From Escherichia coli (lineage in GTDB: Bacteria; Pseudomonadota; Gammaproteobacteria; Enterobacterales; Enterobacteriaceae), in the NCBI RefSeq assembly GCF_024298765.1, contig NZ_CP101210.1: a DNA stretch of 64,000 nt, one strand, 5' to 3'. Below, piece after piece: positions 17,084 through 17,286 of this stretch. The translations under genes were made by a program, and so were the position numbers. Below the pieces are notes generated by a model that saw nothing but the letters and a program-made list of their open reading frames with translations, had not been told where the DNA came from and made no database searches. Numbering within the stretch: the stretch's first letter is position 1; the number at the start of each line of letters is the position of its first letter.

Positions 17084-17250
17084 TTAGTATAAAAAAGTTG
17101 AATGTGAAACGGTAAAAACAATTAATATCAACGGCTTATAATTGATTCAGTCTAAAAAATAGACTGCATAATGCTACAAAACACAACATATCCAGTCACT
17201 ATGAATCAACCACTTAGATGGTATTAGTGACCTGTAACAGAGCATTAGCG
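17084..17250. other. prophage attachment junction (attR-type: bacterial arm, core, phage P arm)
   Basis: Core ttagtataaaaaagt at 17084-17098 = reverse complement of lambda core GCTTTTTTATACTAA with one mismatch; followed by sequence matching the lambda attP P arm (ctgttacaggtcactaataccatctaag...cagtcactat). Confidence 0.8.
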
Positions 17251-17286
17251 CAAGGTGATTTTTTTGTCTTCTTGCGCTAATTTTTT
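17245..17286 (+). terminator. sib/tI-like hairpin terminator just beyond att
   Basis: ttagcgcaag...cttgcgctaa inverted repeat followed by TTTTTT; position relative to att matches lambda tI/sib. Confidence 0.55.

What the first reader, a model, noticed from the sequence alone, without database searches (positions are those of the whole stretch)
17084..17286. Prophage is at the lambda attachment site with a one-mismatch core; arm and sib/tI hairpin conserved
The core reads TTAGTATAAAAAAGT against TTAGTATAAAAAAGC in lambda, followed by lambda-like P-arm sequence and a tI/sib-like hairpin. This is useful for judging whether the prophage is still excision-competent, and it defines the prophage end that lies in this window.
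Basis: partly seen in the sequence, partly recalled or inferred. Interest (0 to 1): 0.3.

Follow-up and report, generated by a model that had tools for sequence, protein, structure and literature searches.

The report
Ordinary lambda-type prophage right junction (attR)
This is the right-hand junction (attR) of a lambda-family prophage at the classic E. coli lambda attachment site; its recombination signals look intact, and about a third of complete E. coli genomes carry something similar, so it is real but ordinary.

Summary
Window 17084-17098 is the lambda 15-bp core with one difference, followed by a gap-free lambda-like P arm and the tI/sib hairpin (17237-17288). On the other side lies host ybhB/bio DNA. 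The junction is therefore attR (B'-O-P as read on the + strand) of a lambdoid prophage that runs rightwards past the window end.

The "mismatch" is not decay. It lies at position -7, outside the 7-bp overlap TTTATAC, which is 7/7 intact. It turns the C core site from CAGCTTTTT into CAACTTTTT. It came with the phage: the same base is in mEp332 and PhiR70_1 (P arm 99.1% and 98.8% identical). mEp332 is a phage kept as a K-12 lysogen that yields plaques after mitomycin C.

P1, P2 and X1 are identical to lambda. H1 and H2 keep the IHF consensus. X2 equals that of phages 434 and mEp332.

It also occurs in at least 60 genomes with an empty site.

The int end is outside the window. In two close relatives attL is canonical, Int is 352/356 identical to lambda Int and Xis 71/72.

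Excision competence is plausible but untested. Verdict: already known, low interest.

The parts
16517..16993 (+). ybhB, the host gene on the bio side of att-lambda; with 16994-17083 it forms the bacterial B' flank
   Evidence: ORF. Annotated ybhB 'kinase inhibitor', next to bioA, in the 100%-identical strain E7. The 68-nt flank matches 5415 of 5426 genomes.
17080..17088 (-). B' core-type Int site. It reads AAAGTTAGT on the + strand (K-12: CAAGTTAGT); the host SNP at 17080 is position +11
   Evidence: Sequence. PhiR70_1 attR has CAAG here. The allele is in about 240 genomes. At least 60 genomes carry it with an unoccupied attB at 100% identity and coverage.
17084..17098 (-). 15-bp common core ACTTTTTTATACTAA (lambda: GCTTTTTTATACTAA)
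17087..17093 (-). 7-bp overlap (strand-exchange) region TTTATAC, 7/7 identical to lambda; position 0 is window 17091
   Evidence: Overlap sequence and numbering from PMC2952878.
17092..17100 (-).
   Evidence: same base in PhiR70_1, G in lambda, 434, ev099, Huey, JEP4 and HK106. The mEp332 record ends ...TTCAACT.
17126..17138 (+). IHF site H2, TATCAACGGCTTA; fits WATCAANNNNTTR and only N positions differ from lambda
   Evidence: Identical in mEp332.
17158..17170 (-). Xis site X2 (the Fis site overlaps this region and its A-tract is kept): TATGCAGTCTATT versus lambda TATGTAGTCTGTT
   Evidence: identical to phages 434 and JEP4. Identical to mEp332.
17171..17177 (-). X1.5 region, GTAGCAT (lambda ACAGTAT)
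   Evidence: identical to 434, ev099 and PhiR70_1.
17178..17190 (-). Xis site X1, TATGTTGTGTTTT; identical in the window and in all seven compared phages that use this site
17193..17202 (+). Arm-type Int site P2, CAGTCACTAT; invariant
17204..17216 (+). IHF site H1, AATCAACCACTTA; consensus kept, one N position differs from lambda
17223..17233 (-). Arm-type Int site P1, AGGTCACTAAT; invariant
17237..17288 (+). tI terminator / sib hairpin: terminator stem 17244-17281, T-run 17281-17286, and an outer ACAGAG/UUUUGU extension that can form only in read-through RNA
   Evidence: -24.5 kcal/mol, z -5.0, same pairing as lambda. All 50 aligned bases match lambda; the only difference is 2 extra U in the window loop.
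17289..17330 (+). Sequence beyond sib. It is shared with 434, ev099, Huey, JEP4, PhiR70_1 and mEp332 but not with lambda. Prophage cargo follows: IS fragments, an AraC-family gene and IS1A, then tail-fibre genes on the - strand
   Evidence: Annotation of E7 and PhiR70_1.

Best explanation
Window 17080-17290 is the attR junction (P-O-B', read here as B'-O-P) left by Int-mediated integration of a mEp332-like lambdoid phage into the E. coli att-lambda site between ybhC and ybhB. To the left is bacterial DNA. The 7-bp overlap is where the strands were exchanged. To the right is the phage P arm carrying C, H2, F/X2, X1.5, X1, P2, H1 and P1, then the tI/sib hairpin. In the prophage state sib is separated from int, which sits at the far end, so int message made from pL after induction should escape sib/RNase III retroregulation. 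Int together with Xis, IHF (at H2) and Fis could then assemble on this arm, bridge P2 to B', and recombine with attL. The single core difference from lambda is a lineage-specific base in the phage's C site, outside the overlap. It does not impair the homology needed for strand exchange. Shown here: the identity, position, orientation and conservation of the sites and the hairpin, and the phage origin of the variant. Inferred: that the sites are bound and that excision still works in this strain. The confidence given is for the identity of the feature; for excision competence in this strain I would put about 0.65.
For: - Core, arm and hairpin are present.
- No gaps separate the window from lambda between the core and sib, so site spacing and phasing are preserved.
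- Across the window and seven phages that use this site, P1, P2, X1 and the overlap are invariant. H1 and H2 vary only at consensus-free positions. The spacers diverge: 13/25 and 9/19 columns are invariant.
- The C-site A and the X2 and H2 sequences are identical in mEp332.
- mEp332 Int is 356/356 identical to the Int of the relatives' prophage.
- mEp332 is maintained as an MG1655 lysogen and gives plaque-forming lysates after mitomycin C (PMC3442831).
- The host flank plus a synthetic empty site is found at 100% in at least 60 genomes.
- Relatives E7 and HCM-28C-2 have a canonical attL with a lambda-identical P' arm, Int 352/356 and Xis 71/72 to lambda.
- Only the overlap must match between partners, and excision uses P2, X1/X1.5/X2, F and H2 on this arm with a P2-B' bridge (PMC2952878; PMC4880445).
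- sib retroregulation of int is described in PMC5300877.
Against: - The int/xis/attL end is not in the window, and the source genome is not among the complete genomes searched (best match 99.7% over 39-64 kb). The other half of the system is therefore known only by proxy.
- The effect of the B' site change at +11, the outermost base of that site, on Int binding was not tested.
- No binding or recombination was measured.
- The prophage capsid gene E is interrupted by an 11-kb embedded satellite. Particle production, though not excision itself, would need a second excision event.
Confidence: 0.9

Rival explanations
1. The junction is a decaying, locked-in attR: the core mismatch and/or the B' +11 change arose after integration and block excision.
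For: There are two differences from the textbook lambda/K-12 attR within the 21-bp core region. The B' change hits a base that the lambda C, C' and K-12 B' sites seen here all share.
Against: The -7 base is present in the independent phages mEp332 and PhiR70_1, so it predates integration. It lies outside the overlap. The +11 base is a host allele also found with empty attB in at least 60 genomes, so the site with this allele exists independently of the prophage. Every P-arm site equals that of an inducible phage.
Confidence: 0.07
2. It is an orphan attR: in the source strain the far end of the prophage (int, xis, attL) has been deleted or rearranged, so this is only a scar of a cryptic element.
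For: The far end is outside the window. IS elements are frequent in this prophage lineage: IS1A and IS fragments at 17.3-19.8 kb, and an IS2 in the early region of HCM-28C-2.
Against: Within the window the prophage is colinear, from the tail fibres through head, terminase, lysis, Q, P and O genes to the window end. Both relatives examined keep int, xis and attL intact.
Confidence: 0.05
3. The resemblance to the lambda core and arm is coincidental AT-rich sequence.
For: none
Against: Chance expectation is 0.06 matches. The 250-bp alignments have E about 1e-86 to 1e-120. The position is exactly at the known attB.
Confidence: 0

Closest known systems
Bacteriophage lambda attR (P-O-B') with the tI/sib retroregulator
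   Same: Same chromosomal site, same 7-bp overlap, same order and spacing of C, H2, F/X2, X1.5, X1, P2, H1, P1 and the tI/sib hairpin. P1, P2 and X1 are identical.
   Different: About 89% identity overall. The C site has A instead of G at -7. X2 and X1.5 are 434-like. The H2-to-core spacer is diverged. The hairpin loop is 2 U longer. Sequence beyond sib is unrelated to the lambda b region.
Phages mEp332 (PV340541) and PhiR70_1 (PV340577)
   Same: P arm 99.1% and 98.8% identical, including the C-site A. mEp332 also shares X2 and H2. The same IS-fragment/AraC cargo lies beyond sib in PhiR70_1. mEp332 Int is identical to that of the relatives' prophage.
   Different: Two or three spacer or N-position substitutions. 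Their records come from K-12/C lysogens with the common B' allele (CAAG).
Lambda-type prophages occupying att-lambda in other E. coli (e.g. O157:H7 strains, BL21)
   Same: 1733 of 5426 complete genomes carry a lambda-type P arm/sib. Only 3491 of 5419 have an unoccupied attB.
   Different: Most are 80-90% identical to this arm; only 149 are at least 99% identical.

Membership tests
lambda-type attR at E. coli att-lambda | Located at the bacterial attB between ybhC and ybhB/bio, with bacterial B' DNA on one side | tested here: met
   ybhB and bioA lie immediately to the left. Flank plus reconstructed empty site is found at 100% in at least 60 genomes.
lambda-type attR at E. coli att-lambda | 7-bp overlap TTTATAC identical to the partner site | tested here: met
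   7/7 in the window. attL of relatives has the same overlap. attL of this genome itself is not available.
lambda-type attR at E. coli att-lambda | Core-type Int sites C and B' as inverted repeats flanking the overlap | tested here: met
   C = CAACTTTTT, a perfect 6-bp inverted repeat of the lambda C' CAACTT. B' = AAAGTTAGT, one change at its outer base.
lambda-type attR at E. coli att-lambda | P arm with arm-type sites P1 and P2, IHF sites H1 and H2, and Xis sites X1/X1.5/X2 (plus Fis) at lambda spacing | tested here: met
   Gap-free alignment. P1, P2 and X1 are identical. H1 and H2 fit the IHF consensus. X2 and X1.5 equal those of phage 434. The Fis site is judged only by the retained A-tract.
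lambda-type attR at E. coli att-lambda | Cognate Int and Xis genes and a BOP' attL at the other prophage end | not testable with these tools
   Outside the window. In relatives E7 and HCM-28C-2 the feature is met: Int 352/356, Xis 71/72, and P' arm 100% to lambda.
lambda-type attR at E. coli att-lambda | Int/Xis/IHF-dependent excisive recombination actually occurs | not testable with these tools
   Indirect evidence only: mEp332, with the same sites, is inducible from a K-12 lysogen (PMC3442831).
lambda tI terminator / sib RNase III retroregulator | GC-rich hairpin followed by a U-run, on the strand transcribed from int across att, roughly 150-200 nt into the P arm | tested here: met
   17237-17288 on the + strand (positions -146 to -197), -24.5 kcal/mol, U-run 17281-17286.
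lambda tI terminator / sib RNase III retroregulator | Stem extension pairing sequence upstream of the hairpin with sequence past the U-run (read-through form) | tested here: met
   The same ACAGAG/UUUUGU extension is predicted in the window and in lambda. RNase III cleavage itself is not testable.
lambda tI terminator / sib RNase III retroregulator | A curated RNA family model matches | tested here: inconclusive
   No Rfam hit at E <= 1. I know of no Rfam family for lambda sib, so the negative result is uninformative.

The most novel reading that the evidence does not exclude
The minority host B' allele (+11 T, in about 4% of complete genomes), possibly together with the phage's consensus-perfect C site, measurably changes Int binding at the attR core. 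It would thereby tune how stably this prophage lineage, with its embedded satellite, is held in these largely avian-associated E. coli.
Probability: 0.05. Interest if true: 0.3.

Novelty: already known. Interest (0 to 1): 0.08.

Why it matters
The finding fixes one prophage boundary exactly: strand exchange occurred within 17087-17093. It shows that every cis-acting signal for excision on this side is intact. It also corrects a tempting misreading, namely that a core mismatch implies a crippled prophage. Beyond annotation it adds nothing new to lambda biology. The system is the textbook one, and about a third of sequenced E. coli genomes carry a version of it.

Tried and rejected
- Rfam scan of 16900-17700 at E <= 1 gave no hits. 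This is uninformative.
- The simple terminator scan of 16950-17450 found nothing. Its rule requires a 3-8 nt loop directly closed by the stem, whereas tI has a bulged apical part. The thermodynamic fold is the relevant test.
- I looked for the source genome so as to read its own attL. The best complete genomes reach 100% on 16-22 kb but only 99.7% on 39-64 kb, so the far end could be examined only in relatives.
- Full-text searches for the core-type consensus string and for sib plus RNase III found nothing citable. The consensus CAACTTNNT is therefore given from my own knowledge (Ross and Landy 1983) and backed by direct comparison with the lambda C' site.
- I first read the split capsid gene E as proof that the prophage is defective. 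I withdrew this after finding that such inserts are described helper-embedded satellites, which excise precisely after the composite excises (PMC10111431).
- I considered that the B' SNP might have been created by, or be linked to, integration. This was rejected because the allele occurs with empty sites.

Full report
**Observation**

On the + strand the window reads ...ccgtttcgctAaag TTAGTATAAAAAAGT tgaatgtgaaacgg.... The 15-mer at 17084-17098 is the reverse complement of ACTTTTTTATACTAA, one base off the lambda common core GCTTTTTTATACTAA. A search allowing up to two mismatches is expected to give 0.06 matches in this window by chance.

From the core rightwards the sequence aligns to lambda 27.5-27.74 kb with no gap until the tI loop (A1). 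BLAST against phage genomes gives about 89% identity to lambda-, 434- and HK106-type attP regions (E about 1e-86). It gives 98.8% to PhiR70_1 and 99.1% to mEp332.

Window 17237-17288 folds into a hairpin of -24.5 kcal/mol (z = -5.0). The lambda tI/sib hairpin folds at -23.7 kcal/mol with the same pairing. The only difference is two extra U in the loop.

**Which junction it is**

Left of the core are ybhB (16517-16993), bioA and bioBFCD, as annotated in strain E7, which is 100% identical over 16-22 kb. The 68 nt left of the last core base occur in 5415 of 5426 complete E. coli genomes.

Right of sib come IS fragments, an AraC-family gene, IS1A, and then tail-fibre, lom, J and the remaining late genes on the - strand. 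The P arm and sib lie on the b-region/J side of lambda attP. The junction is therefore attR, read here as B'-O-P, and the prophage extends rightwards.

The window ends in the O/cII region. In the closest relative, HCM-28C-2, the attL core lies about 12 kb further on, next to ybhC.

**The "mismatch"**

I use the numbering of PMC2952878, in which the third T of the overlap 5'-TTTATAC-3' is position 0. Position 0 is window 17091, the overlap is 17087-17093, and the differing base at 17098 is position -7.

The same paper states that it is the 7-bp overlap that must be identical between partners. Here the overlap is 7/7. Position -7 belongs to the C core-type Int site, which becomes CAACTTTTT instead of lambda's CAGCTTTTT.

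This change makes C a perfect 6-bp inverted repeat of lambda's C' site (CAACTT/AAGTTG). That can be seen directly in the sequences. It also matches the consensus CAACTTNNT as I recall it from Ross and Landy 1983; this is my own knowledge, since the literature search found no text to cite.

In attR the DNA left of the top-strand exchange point comes from the phage, so this base should be a property of the phage. It is:
- PhiR70_1 has the same A.
- The mEp332 record, a prophage cut out of an MG1655 lysogen, ends ...TTCAACT and starts TGCTTTTTTATACTAAGTTGG.
- Lambda, 434, ev099, Huey, JEP4 and HK106 all have G.

mEp332 is kept as an MG1655 prophage and yields plaque-forming lysates after mitomycin C (PMC3442831). 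The variant is therefore compatible with integration and, by inference, with excision.

**The P arm, site by site**

I located the sites by their textbook motifs (my own knowledge of Landy's map), supported by the Int-binding annotations in the lambda record.

| Site | Window coordinates | Sequence | Comparison |
|---|---|---|---|
| P1 | 17223-17233 | AGGTCACTAAT | invariant in the window and seven phages using this site |
| P2 | 17193-17202 | CAGTCACTAT | invariant |
| X1 | 17178-17190 | TATGTTGTGTTTT | invariant |
| H1 | 17204-17216 | AATCAACCACTTA | keeps WATCAANNNNTTR; differs only at an N position |
| H2 | 17126-17138 | TATCAACGGCTTA | keeps WATCAANNNNTTR; differs only at N positions |
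| X2 | 17158-17170 | TATGCAGTCTATT | two differences from lambda; identical to 434, JEP4 and mEp332 |
| X1.5 | 17171-17177 | GTAGCAT | equals 434 |

The spacers are the diverged parts: 13 of 25 and 9 of 19 columns are invariant. This is the pattern expected of a functional arm under selection.

Excision uses P2, X1/X1.5/X2, F and H2 on this arm, with an Int bridge from P2 to B' (PMC4880445; PMC2952878). All of these sites are present at lambda spacing.

Base 17080 is A where K-12 and the PhiR70_1 attR have C. On the top strand this is G to T at +11, the outermost base of B'.

About 240 genomes carry this allele. A synthetic unoccupied attB carrying it is matched at 100% identity and coverage in at least 60 genomes. 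It is therefore a host polymorphism, not damage linked to the prophage. Its effect on Int binding is untested.

**The other end, by proxy**

E7 and HCM-28C-2 both have attL = ...GAAGCCTGCTTTTTTATACTAAGTTGGCATT..., with a P' arm identical to lambda. Both carry the same Int, which is 352/356 identical to lambda Int and 356/356 to mEp332 Int. Both carry the same Xis, 71/72 identical to lambda Xis (protein accessions).

As expected, attL carries the bacterial G at -7. The two junction cores therefore differ at that base by construction.

**sib**

The hairpin is on the + strand, the direction of transcription coming from int across att. The predicted outer extension (ACAGAG pairing with UUUUGU past the U-run) is the same as in lambda. 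Retroregulation of int by sib is textbook (cited in PMC5300877).

In the prophage, sib is separated from int. This is the classical reason why Int can be made from pL after induction. Rfam has no matching family. The simple terminator scan misses the hairpin because of its loop rule.

**How common it is**

A lambda-type P arm/sib is present in 1733 of 5426 complete E. coli genomes, 149 of them at 99% identity or more to this one. Only 3491 of 5419 genomes have an unoccupied attB. This is an ordinary feature.

**State of the prophage**

Within the window the late region is colinear with relatives. The exception is an insert of about 10.9 kb that splits the major capsid gene E at ...KPKH|EVNPQ... 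It is flanked by a 10-bp repeat AACCCAAGCA (37870-37879 and 48754-48763). It carries an integrase, AlpA, a primase, SSB, its own E-like capsid and D-like decoration genes, a Nu1-like small terminase and a DUF2971 gene.

This matches the described helper-embedded PICI "11capE" at site E:Phage_cap_E:80. For that element, excision of the whole composite and then of the satellite has been observed (PMC10111431). The split capsid gene therefore does not in itself argue against excision.

**Verdict**

The finding is real, correctly located and correctly interpreted. It is the textbook lambda attR in a mEp332-like variant. Nothing on this side argues against excision competence. The decisive data lie outside what can be computed here: this genome's own attL/int/xis, and an induction PCR. 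Novelty: already known. Interest: low.

Noticed in passing
window 37870-48763: An element of about 10.9 kb is inserted in the prophage major capsid gene E, flanked by the 10-bp repeat AACCCAAGCA. It encodes a P4-type integrase, AlpA, a D5/DUF5906 primase, SSB, its own E-like capsid and D-like decoration proteins, a second AlpA-like protein, a Nu1-like small terminase and a DUF2971 cargo gene. It matches the published helper-embedded PICI '11capE' (site E:Phage_cap_E:80; PMC10111431). Here the composite sits at att-lambda rather than icd. The integrase-plus-junction sequence is in 173 complete genomes.
   Followed up: yes
L011 (PPompW_132418, LC567822) about 1480-1790; window 17009-17290: PPompW prophages (integrated at ompW; in some records joined to Stx2a-converting phages) carry, internally, an 80%-identical copy of sib, P arm and core. 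The copy continues into about 75 bp homologous to the bacterial B' flank and the ybhB terminator. This looks like a fossil attR picked up by an old aberrant (lambda-bio-type) excision.
   Followed up: partly
window 17311-17394 (+), then 17323-18055: Just beyond sib there is a 27-codon open frame (...IYNHAQYLDKRREMMQWWADWLDEKVE*). From memory it resembles the C-terminus of a P4-type integrase; I did not test this. RefSeq calls it a partial hypothetical protein. The stretch 17289-17330 is shared with 434, ev099, Huey and JEP4 but not with lambda. Two IS3-family transposase fragments, an AraC-family regulator (18096-18848, -) and IS1A (about 19061-19760) follow as b-region cargo. PhiR70_1 has the same transposase fragments and AraC gene beyond sib.
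   Followed up: partly
relatives L002/L012 versus window 17099-17290: There is a mosaic break exactly at the core. In relatives and in mEp332 the P' arm, int and xis are 99-100% lambda, while the P arm is only about 89% lambda. This is consistent with exchange of arms between lambdoid phages at att.
   Followed up: partly
window 38014-39577 versus L002 45596-47570: The cargo end of the embedded satellite differs between strains. The window has a DUF2971 gene next to the Nu1-like gene, whereas HCM-28C-2 has a HEPN + DUF262 pair. This suggests a variable, possibly defence-related, hotspot.
   Followed up: no
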